Source: the human T2T-CHM13v2.0 reference genome, Homo sapiens
DNA: 64,000 nucleotides
Assembly (NCBI RefSeq): GCF_009914755.1
Contig: NC_060927.1
Direction: 5' to 3' (one strand)
Shown: positions 25,316-44,780 of the stretch, one piece after another
How the letters are laid out: each line of letters opens with the position of its first letter
Numbering within the stretch: position 1 is the first letter of the stretch
Program-made: the position numbers and the translations under genes
Notes under the pieces: generated by a model
Databases searched by the model: none
The model's input: the letters and a program-made list of their open reading frames with translations, nothing else
What the model was told of the DNA's origin: nothing

Positions 25316-25351
25316 AAAGAATTTCAGTGCTCATAATAATAGAATAGCTTC

Positions 25352-26252
25352 GGGAGGAGCCAAGATGGCCGAATAGGAACAGCTCTGGTCTACAGCTCCC
25401 AGCGTGAGCGACGCAGAAGATGGGTGATTTCTGCATTTCCATCTGAGGTACCGGGTTCATCTCACTAGGGAGTGCCAGACAGTGGGCACAGGTCAGTGGG
25501 TGCGTGCACCGTGCGCAAGCCGAAGCAGGGCGAGGCATTGCCTCACTCGGGAAGCGCAAGGGGTCAGGGAGTTCCCTTTCCTAGTCAAAGAAAGGGGTGA
25601 AGGACGGCACCTGGAAAATCGGGTCACTCCCACCCCAATACTGAGCTTTTCCGACGGGCTTAAAAAACGGCGCACCACGAGATTATATCACGCACCTGGC
25701 TCGGAGGGTCCTACACCCACGGAGTCTCGCTGATTGCTAGCACAGCAGTCTGAGATCAAACTGCAAGGCGGCAGCCAGGCTGGGGGAGGAGCGCCCGCCA
25801 TTGCCCAGGCTTGCTGAGGTAAACAAAGCAGCCAGGAAGCTCAAACTGGGTGGAGCCCACCACAGCTCAAGGAGGCCTGCCTGCCTCTGTAGGCTCCACC
25901 TCTGGGGGCAGGGCACAGACAAAAAGACAGCAGTAACCTCTGCAGACTTAAATGTCCCTGTCTGACAGCTTTGAAGAGAGCAATGGTTCTCCCAGTACGC
26001 AGCTGGAGATCTGAGAAGGGGCAGACTGCCTCCTCAAGTGGGTGCCTGACCCCTGACCCCCGAGCAGCCTAACTGGGAGACACCCCCCAACAGGGGCACA
26101 CTGACACCTCACATAGCAGGGTACTCCAACAGCCCTGCAGCTGAGGGTCCTGTCTGTTACAAGGAAAACTAACAAACAGAAAGGACATCCACACCAAAAA
26201 CCCATCTGTACATCACCATCATCAAAGACCAAAAGTAGATAAAACCACAAAG
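25352..26252 (+). promoter_or_regulatory. L1 5'UTR internal sense/antisense promoter with YY1 site
   Basis: CAAGATGGCC YY1 motif at 25361; CpG-rich 5'UTR retained. Confidence 0.85.
25688..25801 (-). pseudogene. ORF0: L1 ORF0, truncated at codon 38
   Basis: MAGAPPPAWLPPCSLISDCCASNQRDSVGVGPSEPGA*; the remainder (VRRFLSPSEK...) follows in frame after the TGA. Confidence 0.8.
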
Positions 26253-27268
26253 ATGGGGAAAAAACAGAACAGAAAAACTGGAAACTCTAAAAAGCAGAGC
26301 GCCTCTCCTCCTCCAAAGGAACGCAGTTCTTCACCAGCAACGGAACAAAGCTGGACGGACAATGACTTTGACGAGCTGAGAGAAGAAGGCTTCAGACGAT
26401 CAAATTACTCTGAGCTACGGGAGGACATTCAAACCAAAGGCAAAGAAGTTGAAAACTTTGAAAAAAATTTAGAAGAATGTATAACTAGAATAACCAATAC
26501 AGAGAAGTGCTTAAAGGAGCTGATGGAGCTGAAAACCAAGGCTCGAGAACTACGTGAAGAATGCAGAAGCCTCAGGAGCCGATGCGATCAACTGGAAGAA
26601 AGGGTATCAGCGATGGAAGATGAAATGAATGAAATGAAGTGAGAAGGGAAGTTTAGAGAAAAAAGAATAAAAAGAAATGAGCAAAGCCTCCAAGAAATAT
26701 GGGACTGTGTGAAAAGACCAAATCTACGTCTGATTGATCTACCTGAAAGTGATGGGGAGAATGGAACCAAGTTGGAAAACACGCTGCAGGATATTATCCA
26801 GGAGAACTTCCCCAATCTAGCAAGGCAGGCCAACGTTCAGATTCAGGAAATACAGAGAACGCCACAAAGATACTCCTCAAGAAGAGCAACTCCAAGACAC
26901 ATAATTGTCAGATTCACCAAAGTTGAAATGAAGGAAAAAATGTTAAGGGCAGCCAGAGAGAAAGGTCGGGTTACCCTCAAAGGGAAGCCCATCAGACTAA
27001 CAGCGGATCTCTCGGCAGAAACCCTACAAGCCAGAAGAGAGTGGGGGCCAATATTCAACATTCTTAAAGAAAAGAATTTTCAACCCAGAATTTCATATCC
27101 AGCCAAACTAACTTCATAAGTGAAGGAGAAATAAAATACTTTACAGACAAGCAAATGCTGAGAGATTTTGTCACCACCAGGCCTGCCCTAAAAGAGCTCC
27201 TGAAAGAAGCACTAAACATGGAAAGGAACAACTGGTACCAGCTGCTGCAAAATCATGCCAAAATGTAA
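26253..27268 (+). pseudogene. ORF1: L1 ORF1p of copy 1, disrupted
   Basis: MGKKQNRKTGNSK...; TGA at 26640-26642 and a frameshift near 27111. Confidence 0.96.
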
Positions 27269-27331
27269 AGACCATTGAGACTAGGAAGAAACTGCATCAA
27301 CTAATGAGCAAAATAACCAGCTAACATCATA

Positions 27332-31156
<3,825 letters not shown>

Positions 31157-32940
31157 ACAATGAGATCACATGGACACAGGAAGGGGAACATCACACTCTG
31201 GGGACTGTTGTGTGGTGGGGGGAGGGGGGAGGGATAGCATTGGGAGATATACCTAATGCTAGACGACAAGTTAGTGGGTGCAGCACACCAGCATGGTACA
31301 TGTATACATATGTAACTAACCTGCACAATGTGCACATGTACCCTAAAACTTAAAGTATAATAATAAAAGAAAAAAAGAAAAGAAAAAAAAAAGAATAGCT
31401 TATACAAAAATAACCCTTCTGTAGGCAATAATTATAAATAATGGAAAAAATACAGTTTAAAAAATTGAAGGCACAAGAGGCAGAATAAAGACAAGCTGAA
31501 AGTGGAAAATTTTAACCTCTTAACTCATCTATCCTGAATGAGTCCATGTTTATATGGCATTTCCCTTGATATTATGTCTTTGTCTATACAGCTTGTGGTA
31601 GCTAAAATGAAGGCAGAAATTTGTCATCTTACTAATTAAGGGTTCAGGGTACTGAGTTCAAGTTTGTCAGAACAGATAAAAATTAAGGGAAAGAGTCCTG
31701 GAAAGATACAAGCCACAGAGAAGAGAGCTCTAGTATCTGAAAAAAAAAAAAAAATACCTCAAATCCATGGCTGGCATCTTAACTGTGCATGTGTTGGGGA
31801 GACTTCAAAAATTCCAATGGAGAGCAATAGCTGATAGGTTTTAAAAAGTATATCTAGGCATAGATTTCTGCCTCAACCCGTCACATGGTAGACAGACTTT
31901 TGAGATTAAATCTTAATAAGCTACAGAATATTTGTAAACAAAACAGATTTTCCAATGAACTTCTAGAACTATTGTGTCTTAAGAGCAAAGACTGTGTTAT
32001 AGAAGAGATTTGCACCAAGAAAAAGTCCAAAGTCAAAACAAATCTACTCTTAAAGTGTATAAACCAAGCTTGTACAAGTTAAAAGTCATCAAACAGTAAT
32101 TTCATTTTTATCAATGCTTCTCAAGGGAAAATGACAGAATCCAGGGTCCTATGGCATATCTTCCAAAATCTCCAACATAGAATCAACATTGCTAGATATG
32201 TGAAGAAACAGAAAAATGTAATTGAAGGTCAGTTTAAAAAGTCAATAAAAAAAGTTAAATACTGTAAGCAGATTTTTCAAATACATTCAAGGACTTAAAG
32301 GGAAAGGTAATTATGATAATGAATGCACAGGATATGCCAGCAGATAAAGTCAACTTTGAACAAGAATCATGTGAAAAGTATAGAACTAAAAAAATACCAT
32401 TTCTAAAATAAAATTTAGAAAAACTGCATAAGATTAATAGCAGATTGTACATTGAAGAAGAAATGGCCAGTGACACTGAATACAAATTAATAGAAAGTAT
32501 CAAATACAGAGAAAAAAAGACAAAAATGCAGCATTTTGGGATAATATAAAACTAAGCATCACATGTATAGTTGGAGTTATAGAAAAGGAGGACCAAAAAA
32601 AAAAAATAGAGCAGAAAGGAATAATTGAATAAACGGTACCTAAAACTTCTCCCAATTTGGTGAAGACATCATCTTATAGATCCAAGAAGTTTGATAAACC
32701 ATATCATGTTGAGTACAAAGAAAAAATACATACAGGTCCATTATAATAAAACTACTAAAGGTCAAAGCTATTGAAAACATTTTGAAAAACACACAAAAAT
32801 GGTGTATCATATTTTGGGAAACAACAGTCAGAAATATAACCAACTTCTCATAAGGAAACTATGGAAGCCAGAAGACAGTGGAAGATATTTTTACTATTCT
32901 GATAAAAGAGAGAAAAGAAGATTTTTATACTCAGTTAAAA

Positions 32941-37227: not shown

Positions 37228-38614
37228 GGAACCATACCCTGTTTACCTGCAATTCTAACTCTCCAATAATCAAGAATATGTCCACCAAAAGACAAATACA
37301 AAAAAAAAAAAATAACCAAACATTGACAAAAAAAGAGAAACATACCAGAATAATCATTAGCAGTGATTTCACAATAATTTTCATTTAGAAACTTTCACAT
37401 TTCCATTGCAATAATGAATTCATACATTGTGATATATTCATAACTAGAATATTAAACAGCAATGAGAATGAATGAACTGAAACTACACACAAAAATGTGT
37501 GAATTCCCAAGTATAATGCTGAACAAAAAAGACATATGTTTGCATTTATAAAATGATTTTTTAAAAAGACATTAGAAATCAGTAGTTATTAGCCATGGGC
37601 TTGAGGTTTTATGAAGGGAAACATCATGATGAGGACTTCTGGGTTACTAGTAATATTCTATCTTTTGATCTGGATGCTGTAACATGAATATTCTATTTTG
37701 TGAAAATTTTCATAGTGCTGTGCACATGATTTGTAGTACACTTTTCTTGATATATGTTATAACGTAAAAATTCACAAAGCAAAATGATTCACAATGTAGA
37801 ATTTGTAACTGCTTTGAAATTTCAGAAGTGACAAAGACTGTTTAAATACTTATTATCCAGTATTTTCCAAGTTATTTGATTCCAATATAACACATCTTAA
37901 CATCTGACAAAACTAGTGTTTTATGAAACACTTTGGAAGGGTCATCATATCTAAGGAATTGCAATTTTTATTGTTTTAATGAGATTCAAAAACTCCTATT
38001 ATCGTTTGCACTTCAGCCACAAAATCTACTAAAATTCCCTGAATCACAATGTCTCTTTTTAAAAAGTGTTAATCATAATAACTACCTCAAAATGTTACTG
38101 AGTGAAGAATAAAAGAGACATATTATATATCCTAGTTATTTTTGTTATAAATGATGAGCCAACCAAACAGTAGCAATATAATATGTATTTCCTGAGGACT
38201 CAGTTTTGTCAAGTAAAAGAATAATAGCCTCTAAGGAAAACATATCTCTATCAAAAAATTATAAATAATATTAAATTTAATTCAATCTAGTATTTCCTTG
38301 ATATACCTATTAGAAGCGGTCGCCACTGAAGAATTGGTAATTGTATAACACTGTAGCAAAATAATCTCCTATAGCAATTTTATGTGCTTCAAGGATTACT
38401 ACTCTTAACCTGTTAACTGATACACTTATATCTAAGCATTAAGACTTAATTTCAACACTATTAATGCTGCAGATACTAGCTAGATAATTTGGAATTTTCT
38501 ATTTGATTTTCTATGACTTTGTTTAGCTGGCTCTTTCATTGTTGATATAACTTATGAAAATCTATGGTGAAGGCAATATAAAATTCAGATTCTACATTAA
38601 GAAAGTATAGAATC

Positions 38615-39623
38615 TGGCATGATTTTGCAGCGGCTGGTACCAGTTGTTCCTTTCCATATTTAGCGCTTCCTTCAGGAGCTCTTTTAGGGCAGGCCTGGTG
38701 GTGACAAAATCTCTCAGCATTTGCTTGTCTGTAAAGTATTTTATTTCTCCTTCACTTATGAAGCTTAGTTTGGCTGGATATGAAATTCTGGGTTGAAAAG
38801 TCTTTTCTTTAAGAATGTTGAATATTGGCCCCCACTCTCTTCTTGCTTGTAGGGTTTCTGCTGAGAGATCCGCTGTTAGTCTGATGGGCTTCCCTTTGAG
38901 GGTAACTTGACCTTTCTCTCTGGCTGCCCTTAACATTTTTTCCTTCATTTCAACTTTGGTGAATCTGACAATTATGTGTCTTGGAGTTGCTCTTCTCGAG
39001 GAGTATCTTTGTGGCGTTCTCTGTATTTCCTGAATCTGAACGTTGGCCTGCCTTGCTAGATTGGGGAAGTTCTCCTGGATAATATCCTGCAGCATGTTTT
39101 CCAACTTGGTTCCATTCTCCCCATCACTTTCAGGTAGACCAATCAGACGTAGATTTGGTCTTTTCACACAGTCCCATATTTCTTGGAGGCTTTGCTCATT
39201 TCTTTTTATTCTTTTTTCTCTAAACTTCCCTTCTCACTTCATTTCATTCATTTCATCTTCCATCGCTGATACCCTTTCTTCCAGTTGATCGCATCGGCTC
39301 CTGAGGCTTCTGCATTCTTCACGTAGTTCTCGAGCCTTGGTTTTCAGCTCCATCAGCTCCTTTAAGCACTTCTCTGTATTGGTTATTCTAGTTATACATT
39401 CTTCTAAATTTTTTTCAAAGTTTTCAACTTCTTTGCCTTTGGTTTGAATGTCCTCCCGTAGCTCAGAGTAATTTGATCATCTGAAGCCTTCTTCTCTCAG
39501 CTCGTCAAAGTCATTGTCCGTCCAGCTTTGTTCCGTTGCTGGTGAGGAACTGCGTTCCTTTGGAGGAGGAGAGGCGCTCTGCTTTTTAGAGTTTCCAGTT
39601 TTTCTGTTCTGTTTTTTCCCCAT
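38615..39623 (-). pseudogene. ORF1: Inverted L1 ORF1 of copy 2, disrupted
   Basis: ATG at 39623; TGA stops at 39477-39479 and 39234-39236; KRPNLRLIGLPESDGENGTKLE...; lacks the last codons. Confidence 0.94.
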
Positions 39624-39805
39624 CTTTGTGGTTTTATCTACTTTTGGTCTTTGATGATGGTGATGTACAGATGGGTTTTTGGTGTGGATGTGTTTTCTGT
39701 TTGTTAGTTTTCCTTGTAACAGACAGGACCCTCAGCTGCAGGTCTGTTGGAATACTCTGCTGTGTGAGGTGTCAGTGTGCCCCTGCTGGGGGGTGCGTCC
39801 CAGTT

Positions 39806-40179
39806 TGACTTCATCTCTATGCCATCTGGGTTCCTCAAATGGCCCTCTTCCACATACCACCATCTGAATGGCTCACACTTAATCTTTCCAACAGAAACGT
39901 CGCAGCATGCCCAGCAATTCTGACCCCTCTTCAGGGCATCGTAGCCCCCATGCCGTGGCCTGCTCCCTGCTCATGCATCCTCCATTCCAGCCTGGCTGGC
40001 CTTTGCTCTGCAATTCCAGGCCAGTCCAGCTGCTGCAGAGTGACACCTTACCCCCACTCCTGACCCCCACTCTTACCTGAAAAAGCCCATCCCCAGTGGA
40101 TGGCGACTGGAATCCCAGCACTCCTTCAGGACCCAACTCCAATGCCATTTTCTCCAACCTCCAAGGAGAGGATTAATTA
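39806..40179 (+). other. Non-L1 GC-rich segment captured at the inversion junction; resembles highly diverged L2
   Basis: No L1 similarity, ~55-58% GC; L2-like motifs ttccagcctggctggcctttgctct and ccttcaggacccaactccaatgccattttctcca. Confidence 0.75.
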
Positions 40180-40180
40180 A

Positions 40181-43990
<3,810 letters not shown>

Positions 43991-44254
43991 ACAATGAGAT
44001 CACATGGACACAGGAAGGGGAATATGACACTCTGGGGACTGTTGTTTGGTGGGGGGAGGGGGGGAGGGATAGCATTGGGAGATATACCTAATGCTAGATG
44101 ATGAGATAGTGAGTGCAGCGCAGGAGCATGGCACATGTATACATATGTAACTAACCTGCACAATGTGCACATGTACCCTAAAACTTAAAGTATAATAATA
44201 ATTTTAAAAAAAAAGAAAAAAAAAAGAAAGTGTAGAATCTGCCACTTTAGTGCC

Positions 44255-44780
44255 TATATTGACAATCTGTAACAAACTGCCCCCAAAATTTGGCAGTTTA
44301 AAACTATAAATATTTATTGTCTTACAATTTTTGACAGTCAAGTATCTATGTGAATATGGCTTAACCAATAACCCCTGGCTTCAGATATATCACGAAGTTT
44401 TTCTCAAGCATTCAGCTGTGGCTGTAATCCTCTTTCAGAGGTCCATTGCAGAAAGGAAGGTCTGCCTCCAGGTTTACTTATGTGGTTTTTGGTGGGACTT
44501 GACGTTTCACCACCTGGACCTATCTACAGGGATACCATACAACATTACAGCTGATTTTTTTCCAGGGTGAACAATACAAAAGAAAGAGTGAGAGAGATTA
44601 TGCCCAAGACAGAAACCACGGTCTTTTTATAACCTAATTTTGGAAATGACATTTTATCATCTCTATCGTATTCTATTCAATAGAAGTTAATCAATAAGTG
44701 TAGCCCACACAAGAGGGGAAGGAAATCTATGAGGGCATGGAACAGGGATCACTGGGGGCCGTATGACAGTCTGTGTACCC
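44255..44780 (-). mobile_element. MLT1 (F/H-like) MaLR LTR
   Basis: gtaacaaactgcccccaaaatttggcagtttaaaac...ttttataacctaatttt ggaaatgac. Confidence 0.65.

What the first reader, a model, noticed from the sequence alone, without database searches (positions are those of the whole stretch)
39806..40179. Young L1 carries 374 bp of foreign, fossil L2-like genomic DNA at its inversion junction
Seen: between the inverted 5' arm (ending at L1 nt ~720, AACTGGG) and the sense ORF2 arm lies a ~55-58% GC segment. It is inside the element's TSDs, has no TSD or poly(A) of its own, and I see no other copy in the window. It resembles heavily decayed L2. Established: L2 was extinct long before L1PA2 existed, so it cannot have inserted by itself. 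Inference: it was captured during retrotransposition. One route is 5' transduction from a promoterless source L1 truncated at nt ~720 and driven by a host transcript (in twin priming the inverted arm runs toward the RNA 5' end). The other is an RT template switch to another RNA/DNA. The right junction AGGATTAATTAACACATAAC resembles L1 AGGATCAAATTCACACATAAC, suggesting microhomology joining. The segment is a tag pointing to the donor locus.
Basis: partly seen in the sequence, partly recalled or inferred. Interest (0 to 1): 0.82.

Follow-up and report, generated by a model that had tools for sequence, protein, structure and literature searches.

The report
L1 inversion junction carrying WWC3 intron copy
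An old, dead L1 jumping gene on chromosome 3 picked up 374 bases copied from an intron of the X-linked gene WWC3 while it was inserting; it is a clean but ordinary example of a known way that L1 shuffles host sequence.

Summary
A 5'-inverted (twin-primed) L1 sits inside an 18-bp target-site duplication (38599-38616 and 44224-44241). Between its inverted arm (L1 nt ~1911 to ~722) and its sense arm (nt ~2000 to the poly(A)) lie 374 bp of non-L1 DNA (39806-40179).

A search of the whole T2T genome finds one other copy, at chrX:9684384-9684758. It is 97% identical, full length, and bounded exactly at the L1 edges. That locus lies in an intron of WWC3. No L1 lies within about 8.4 kb upstream or 11.2 kb downstream.

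The captured piece is colinear with the inverted arm and matches the sense strand of WWC3. The left junction is blunt. The right junction has an imperfect 9-of-11 microhomology to L1.

The divergence of the insert from its donor (10 substitutions and 1 gap in 374) fits the private divergence of the L1 arm (1.43%), so the two arrived together.

Best reading: the secondary twin-primed cDNA ran from L1 RNA onto WWC3 intronic RNA, then annealed to the primary cDNA. A 5' transduction from a donor L1 that has since been lost cannot be excluded. The L2 likeness could not be tested.

This is a new member of a known kind, of moderate to low interest.

The parts
38599..38616 (+). 5' copy of the 18-bp target-site duplication. 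Its last 2 nt (TG) are also readable as L1, which gives microhomology at the internal priming site.
   Evidence: regex hit at both ends, 17 of 18 identical; the L1 alignment starts at 38615.
38617..39805 (-). Inverted 5' arm of the L1 (antisense), L1 nt ~1911 down to ~722. It is the product of the secondary (twin-primed) reverse transcription.
   Evidence: 98.0% identity to the in-window full-length L1, ref 27260->26071; the ref L1 starts at ~25352; 17 private substitutions in 1188 sites.
39806..40179 (-). Captured 374-bp copy of a WWC3 intron segment (chrX:9684758->9684384), antisense on the window + strand and colinear with the inverted L1 arm.
   Evidence: 97% identity, query 1-374, E 1.7e-176; exact boundaries; 10 substitutions and 1 gap; flanking WWC3 exons on the chrX + strand.
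40166..40179 (+). Right-junction microhomology zone. The donor-derived bases here resemble the L1 bases just upstream of the sense-arm start (9 of 11 matches).
   Evidence: background frequency 1.5%; 39-nt, 84.6% hit to the in-window L1 at 27331-27369.
40180..44204 (+). Sense arm of the L1 (ORF2 from near its start, then the 3' UTR), the product of the primary TPRT. ORF2 is broken by stop codons.
   Evidence: 96.9% identity, ref 27331/27349-31395; open frames of 881, 216 and 170 aa separated by stops.
44205..44223 (+). Poly(A) tail, interrupted by one G.
44224..44241 (+). 3' copy of the target-site duplication.

Best explanation
This was a single retrotransposition event. An L1 RNA integrated on chr3 by twin priming. 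The primary cDNA was primed at the poly(A) and reached about L1 nt 2000. The secondary cDNA was primed from the other target end at L1 nt ~1911 (2-nt microhomology) and copied the L1 RNA down to nt ~722. The reverse transcriptase then left the L1 RNA and continued, with no overlap and no filler, on a second RNA. That RNA was the sense strand of an intron of WWC3 (chrX), entered at 9684758 and copied for 374-375 nt down to 9684384. The 3' end of this extended secondary cDNA annealed through an imperfect ~11-nt microhomology to the primary cDNA near L1 nt ~1985-2000, and was extended to complete the insertion. Shown by the calls: the architecture, the donor locus, its strand, the exact boundaries, the junction sequences and the equal age. 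Inferred: that the template was RNA, and that the L1-WWC3 joint arose in trans (an RT template jump, or ligation of two RNA fragments before RT) rather than pre-existing in a donor transcript.
For: (1) One TSD pair and one poly(A) enclose everything. The two L1 arms break 88 nt apart in L1 coordinates (ref 27260 against 27349), as twin priming predicts. (2) There is one other genomic copy, at chrX:9684384-9684758 on the minus strand, 97% identical over query 1-374. Its flanks are unique and the homology stops exactly at the L1 edges. (3) No L1 abuts the donor, and there is no L1 hit in chrX:9676000-9695999 except a 33-nt A-rich match. (4) The donor lies between WWC3 coding exons at 9681035-9681139 and 9692310-9692558 on the + strand. 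The captured piece therefore has the polarity expected if sense pre-mRNA templated the same cDNA that carries the antisense L1 arm. (5) At the right junction the ambiguous bases keep the donor's version, not L1's. This means the donor-derived strand was the 3' primer end that annealed to the primary cDNA; the similarity is 9 of 11, background 1.5%. (6) The ages agree. The L1 arm has 17 private substitutions in 1188 sites (1.43%). The insert and donor differ at 10 substitutions plus 1 gap in 374 (2.7%, two lineages). (7) The donor boundaries are not splice sites (CA|TA and CA|CC) and no Rfam family matches, so the piece is raw intron and not an exon or a small RNA. (8) There is precedent. [quoted passage not shown]
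Against: Nothing proves an RNA template: there is no splice junction, no poly(A) and no A-to-G editing pattern among the 10 substitutions. The sense orientation relative to WWC3 has a 50% chance under a DNA model. A homology-free switch at an internal L1 position (nt ~722) onto an internal intron position is not the usual pattern; by recall, template jumps are mostly end-to-end. It may therefore need broken RNAs. Only one human assembly was examined, so a donor L1 that was polymorphic and has been lost would leave exactly this picture. The same difficulty is acknowledged for other chimeras in PMC13174262 (section 13). Germline expression of WWC3 was not examined.
Confidence: 0.5

Rival explanations
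1. 5' transduction. A 5'-truncated (nt ~722), promoterless L1 once sat in sense orientation in this WWC3 intron at chrX:9684758/9 and was transcribed from upstream, by WWC3 or by a cryptic start. The secondary cDNA simply read through the donor's 5' junction into its flank. The donor allele was never fixed, or was lost.
For: The captured piece lies exactly where, and in the orientation in which, upstream flank would be copied. It has the sense polarity of a host gene that could drive it. A blunt L1/flank junction is natural if it is simply an old 5' junction. There is precedent for an intronic, promoter-disabled L1PA2 driven by its host gene RAP1GDS1, and for chimeras whose source L1 cannot be found and is presumed lost (PMC13174262, sections 13-14 and 21).
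Against: There is no L1 at or within ~8.4 kb upstream or ~11.2 kb downstream of the donor in this assembly. No sibling carries the tag (2 genomic matches only). The 7-30 nt upstream of the putative donor junction offer no good match to the L1 endonuclease site; this is my reading against the recalled TTTT/AA consensus, so it is weak. ORF1 and ORF2 would have to be translated from an RNA that begins in, or reads through, several kb of intron.
Confidence: 0.3
2. DNA-level capture. A free fragment or a copied stretch of chrX genomic DNA was joined between the two cDNA ends by end-joining or polymerase-mediated templated repair while the insertion was being resolved.
For: The blunt left junction looks like classical end-joining, and the right junction like microhomology-mediated joining. 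PMC11702581 reports L1 insertions containing templated genomic DNA.
Against: The reported templated pieces come from DNA near the integration site, not from another chromosome. The sense-of-gene polarity would be a coincidence (1 in 2). 374 bp is long for polymerase-theta-type templated insertion (recalled).
Confidence: 0.12
3. A later, independent event (insertion or gene conversion) placed the 374 bp into an existing L1 inversion junction; or the structure is an assembly artefact.
For: None specific. The piece has no TSD or poly(A) of its own.
Against: The divergence of insert from donor equals what the L1 arm's private divergence predicts. The piece sits exactly at the inversion junction and shares microhomology with the L1 bases it replaces. 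The element has a clean TSD in a T2T assembly.
Confidence: 0.04

Closest known systems
[quoted passage not shown] 2024 preprint, PMC11702581, Fig. 3A as described in the text; passages read)
   Same: It is three-part: an inverted piece, a middle piece made by the secondary RT after it left its first template, then the primary RT piece. The parts are joined with microhomology or blunt ends inside one TSD.
   Different: That case arose in a cell-culture L1 expression model, and all three pieces came from one mRNA 3' UTR. Here the event is germline, fixed in the reference and roughly 6-14 My old (my estimate using recalled mutation rates). The first template is L1 itself and the second is an intron of a gene on another chromosome.
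L1 chimeric insertions with unique RNAs / 5' transductions (Law & Burns 2026, PMC13174262; abstract and sections 10, 13 and 18 read, plus passages)
   Same: Non-L1 unique sequence arrived together with an L1 inside one TSD, and the source L1 is absent from the donor gene.
   Different: Their 17 cases are exonic, mostly first exons, often end at splice donors and sit at the 5' end of near-full-length L1s. Here the piece is unspliced intron with no splice site at either edge, and it sits internally between the two arms of an inversion. WWC3 does not occur in the 6 held supplementary files.
U6/L1 and other small-RNA/L1 chimeras formed by template switching or RtcB ligation (Moldovan 2019, PMC6789731, seen in listings only; the Buzdin and Gilbert papers are recalled, not seen)
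   Same: Two RNAs are copied into one cDNA, and the junction can be blunt.
   Different: Those acceptors are abundant small RNAs, usually full length and joined to the primary cDNA in sense orientation. Here the acceptor is an internal piece of an 11-kb intron joined to the secondary cDNA. No Rfam family matches it.
Ordinary 5'-inverted L1 (twin priming; Kojima 2010, PMC2912911, passages read; Ostertag & Kazazian 2001 could not be opened)
   Same: TSD, poly(A), microhomology at the 5' junction, arms that break close together in L1 coordinates, and microhomology at the inversion junction.
   Different: An ordinary inversion joins the two L1 arms directly. Here 374 bp of foreign sequence intervene.

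Membership tests
Twin-primed (5'-inverted) L1 insertion | One TSD pair and one poly(A) enclose both arms | tested here: met
   18-bp TSD, 17 of 18 identical, at 38599-38616 and 44224-44241; poly(A) at ~44205-44223.
Twin-primed (5'-inverted) L1 insertion | The 5' arm is inverted, and its TSD-proximal end lies close in L1 coordinates to the start of the sense arm | tested here: met
   The inverted arm starts at ref 27260 and the sense arm at ref 27349, so 88 nt of L1 are missing.
Twin-primed (5'-inverted) L1 insertion | Microhomology at the internal priming site (5' junction) | tested here: met
   The 2 nt (TG) at 38615-38616 read both as the TSD end and as L1.
Twin-primed (5'-inverted) L1 insertion | L1 endonuclease-type target site | tested here: met
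   The target reads ...ACATT|AAGAAAGT, i.e. TCTT/AA on the nicked strand. The consensus it is compared with is recalled.
L1 chimera by RT template switch or RNA joining in trans | The foreign piece is colinear with the cDNA that carries it and lies inside the same TSD | tested here: met
   The insert and the inverted arm are both antisense on the window + strand.
L1 chimera by RT template switch or RNA joining in trans | The donor locus has no L1 next to the captured sequence | tested here: met
   in one assembly only.
L1 chimera by RT template switch or RNA joining in trans | The template was RNA | tested here: inconclusive
   The piece matches the sense strand of a WWC3 intron, but there is no splice, poly(A) or editing signature.
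L1 5' transduction | A source L1 directly downstream of the transduced sequence at the donor locus | tested here: not met
   chrX continues as unique non-L1 sequence after 9684758, and there is no L1 in the 20 kb fetched. Other haplotypes and species were not testable.
L1 5' transduction | Sibling insertions share the tag | tested here: not met
   Only 2 genomic matches, the insert itself and the donor.
L2 (fossil LINE-2) fragment | Significant alignment to an L2 consensus or profile | not testable with these tools
   No Dfam or RepeatMasker library is on hand. There are no extra genomic matches at E<=10, which is expected for a very decayed repeat and equally for unique DNA.

The most novel reading that the evidence does not exclude
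The jump of the secondary reverse transcriptase onto the WWC3 intron was not random but homology-guided. A 9-mer (CCGAGCAGC) lies in the L1 2 nt beyond the exit point, and the same 9-mer lies in the intron directly beside the entry point, yet neither copy is kept in the product. This would point to a dock-then-transfer (acceptor-invasion-like) strand transfer by L1 ORF2p on nuclear intronic RNA. Alternatively, it would point to a microhomology-mediated switch followed by loss of 11 nt.
Probability: 0.12. Interest if true: 0.6.

Novelty: new member of a known kind. Interest (0 to 1): 0.35.

Why it matters
The donor, its strand and both junctions are resolved to the base, which makes this a clean natural specimen of a three-part L1 chimera. 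It shows that the architecture seen in L1-overexpressing cultured cells (a secondary RT that changes template before the two cDNAs join) has also left a fixed copy in the human germline. It also shows that raw intronic sequence from another chromosome, and not only small RNAs or spliced exons, can be caught this way. Catalogues that look for exonic matches at the 5' end of L1s would miss such cases. In itself it has no evident functional consequence: both L1 reading frames are broken and no gene is annotated in the window.

Tried and rejected
(1) Small-RNA gene as donor: Rfam on the chrX locus gave only two chance-level hits (E 0.58 and 0.63, far below the gathering scores). Rejected.

(2) Spliced exon or splice into L1: neither edge of the donor segment is a splice site, and the L1 entry at nt ~722 is not preceded by AG. 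Rejected.

(3) Local origin: there is no copy elsewhere in the 64-kb window. Rejected.

(4) An L1 remnant at the donor that could explain homology: a local alignment of the 100 nt beyond the donor breakpoint against 200 nt of L1 around nt 722 is not significant (score 11, reached by 127 of 500 shuffles). Only the exact 9-mer stands out (89 of 127,970 background 30-nt windows share a 9-mer with the L1 30-mer). After allowing for my post-hoc choices this is roughly p 0.003-0.01.

(5) Promoter at the far end of the captured piece: no CpG island (CpG o/e 0.23-0.31 at 9684000-9684999).

(6) L2 identity: not testable.

(8) Ostertag & Kazazian 2001 could not be opened. A search combining 5' transduction with twin priming returned nothing, probably because the apostrophe cannot be searched.

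(9) Whether the event is in print: no paper holds both WWC3 and L1PA*. None of the 10 listed papers contains WWC3. The supplements of PMC13174262 contain neither WWC3 nor my estimated hg38 coordinates.

Full report
**What is there.** The window is T2T-CHM13 chr3:168330001-168394000. Reading 38400-44400 and aligning it to the full-length L1 in the same window (25350-31403, + strand, starting at ~25352) gives the following layout.
- An 18-bp target-site duplication lies at 38599-38616 and 44224-44241, 17 of 18 identical.
- An antisense L1 arm spans 38615/38617-39805 and equals ref 27260->26071, i.e. L1 nt ~1911->~722, at 98.0% identity.
- 374 bp of non-L1 sequence follow, at 39806-40179.
- A sense L1 arm runs from 40180 (ref 27349, L1 nt ~2000) to a poly(A) at ~44205-44223, at 96.9% identity.

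The two arms break 88 nt apart in L1 coordinates. The last 2 nt of the 5' TSD are also readable as L1. The target reads ACATT|AAGAAAGT. This is a textbook twin-primed (5'-inverted) L1. Twin priming as described in PMC2912911 and PMC11702581 was read in passages. The endonuclease consensus is recalled. Both L1s in the window have broken reading frames.

**The insert.** It is 374 bp with 54.3% GC (0.545-0.605 in 200-bp windows). It has no TSD or poly(A) of its own and no second copy in the window.

**The donor.** A search of the whole assembly with the 374 bp found two places. One is the insert itself. The other is chrX (C23) 9684384-9684758, minus strand, 97% identity over query 1-374, E 1.7e-176.
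- The pairwise alignment and the junction print-out show that homology starts and stops exactly at the L1 edges.
- A 1-kb piece of chrX centred on the donor has only itself and the chr3 insert as matches, even at E<=10 (query 286-660).
- The chrX flanks are therefore unique, and chrX is the parent.
- No sibling insertions exist in this genome.

**Context of the donor.** The 20 kb at chrX:9676000-9695999 contain no L1 (one 33-nt A-rich hit only) and no CpG island at the locus.
- An open frame 7.5 kb downstream is 100% identical to chimpanzee WWC3.
- Mapping that protein back onto the genome places WWC3 coding exons on the + strand from 9598111 to 9722087.
- The donor lies between the exons at 9681035-9681139 (aa 343-377) and 9692310-9692558 (aa 369-451).
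- CLCN4-type exons at 9788912-9796354 fit the recalled gene order.

The donor is therefore intronic, and the reverse complement of the insert is the sense strand of WWC3 pre-mRNA. The donor edges are not splice sites and Rfam finds no RNA family there.

**Junctions.**

*Left junction, shown in L1 sense:* the donor ends ...GAAGTCA and the L1 resumes AACTGGG.... There is no shared base and no filler.

*Right junction, window + strand:* the donor ends ...GGATTAATTA and the L1 resumes ACACATAAC....
- The donor's last bases resemble the L1 bases that would have preceded the L1 start (9 of 11). This score was reached by 1.5% of 20,000 random 16-mers.
- Where the two sequences differ, the product keeps the donor's version. 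The donor-derived strand was therefore the 3' end that annealed to the primary cDNA and was extended on it.
- This fixes the polarity of synthesis along the window + strand: left TSD, then L1 1911->722, then WWC3 9684758->9684384, then the join to the primary cDNA.

**Age.** I aligned the inverted arm with 17 other copies. These were the in-window L1 plus 16 that I picked from the 39 non-self matches listed: the top 15 and one more. itself scored 40 of 4378 candidates.
- The chr3 arm has 17 private substitutions in 1188 sites, 1.43%. The comparators are biased toward little-diverged copies.
- The insert differs from its donor by 10 substitutions and one 1-base gap in 374 (2.7%). That is what two lineages of about that age would accumulate.
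- The L1 and the insert therefore arrived together. With recalled primate mutation rates this is roughly 6-14 My ago, the L1PA2-L1PA3 era. The subfamily itself was not determined.

**Mechanism.** The secondary cDNA of a twin-primed insertion was extended beyond L1 nt ~722 on a template with WWC3-sense polarity, and was then joined to the primary cDNA by microhomology. Three routes give this product.
- (a) A join in trans (confidence 0.5): an RT template jump, or ligation of two RNA fragments before RT.
- (b) Read-through of the 5' junction of a promoterless, 5'-truncated donor L1 that once sat in the intron (confidence 0.3).
- (c) DNA-level capture (confidence 0.12).

[quoted passage not shown] However, PMC13174262 shows a host-driven intronic L1 source (RAP1GDS1). 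It also accepts that source L1s may have been lost from the population. Route (b) therefore remains serious, and one assembly cannot exclude it. Nothing in the sequence proves an RNA template. The sense orientation is only a 2:1 argument against (c).

**Unexplained.** The 9-mer CCGAGCAGC lies in the L1 2 nt beyond the exit point. The same 9-mer lies in the intron immediately beside the entry point, yet neither copy is in the product. The background frequency is 89 of 127,970 overlapping 30-nt windows. The wider local alignment is not significant (127 of 500 shuffles). No simple switch model that uses the 9-mer yields the observed junction unless 11 nt were lost afterwards. Ape orthologues could test this.

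**Novelty.** No paper in the searched library holds both WWC3 and L1PA*. WWC3 is absent from the six held supplementary files of the 2026 chimera catalogue. This specific event therefore appears undescribed, but it belongs to a well-described class.

**Untested.** The L2 label remains untested.

Noticed in passing
window 39795-39806 and L003 (chrX 9684759-9684767): The 9-mer CCGAGCAGC is shared by the L1 (2 nt beyond the point where the inverted arm ends) and the WWC3 intron (directly beside the captured segment). It is absent from the product. Background frequency is about 7e-4 per 30-nt window.
   Followed up: partly
window 25350-31403: A full-length (~6.05 kb) L1 in + orientation, 97-98% identical to the chimeric element. 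All reading frames are broken (longest ATG frame 372 aa). The RefSeq 'enhancer' feature at 25623-26217 lies inside its 5' UTR.
   Followed up: partly
G000:C24 (chrY) 6441494-6441661: A WWC3-like exon fragment on the Y chromosome (80% identity to aa 143-198, two in-frame TAG stops). It is presumably a decayed X-Y gametologue or pseudogene piece.
   Followed up: no
G000:C5:156977391-156977504 (-) and C14:44850900-44851112 (-): Isolated single-exon-sized matches to WWC-family protein, away from the WWC1 (chr5:168.8-169.0 Mb) and WWC2 (chr4:186.4-186.6 Mb) clusters. They may be pseudogene fragments.
   Followed up: no
window 40181-43990: ORF2 of the chimeric element is open for 881 codons from the junction and is then interrupted by stops (frames of 216 and 170 aa follow). 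The element is dead.
   Followed up: yes
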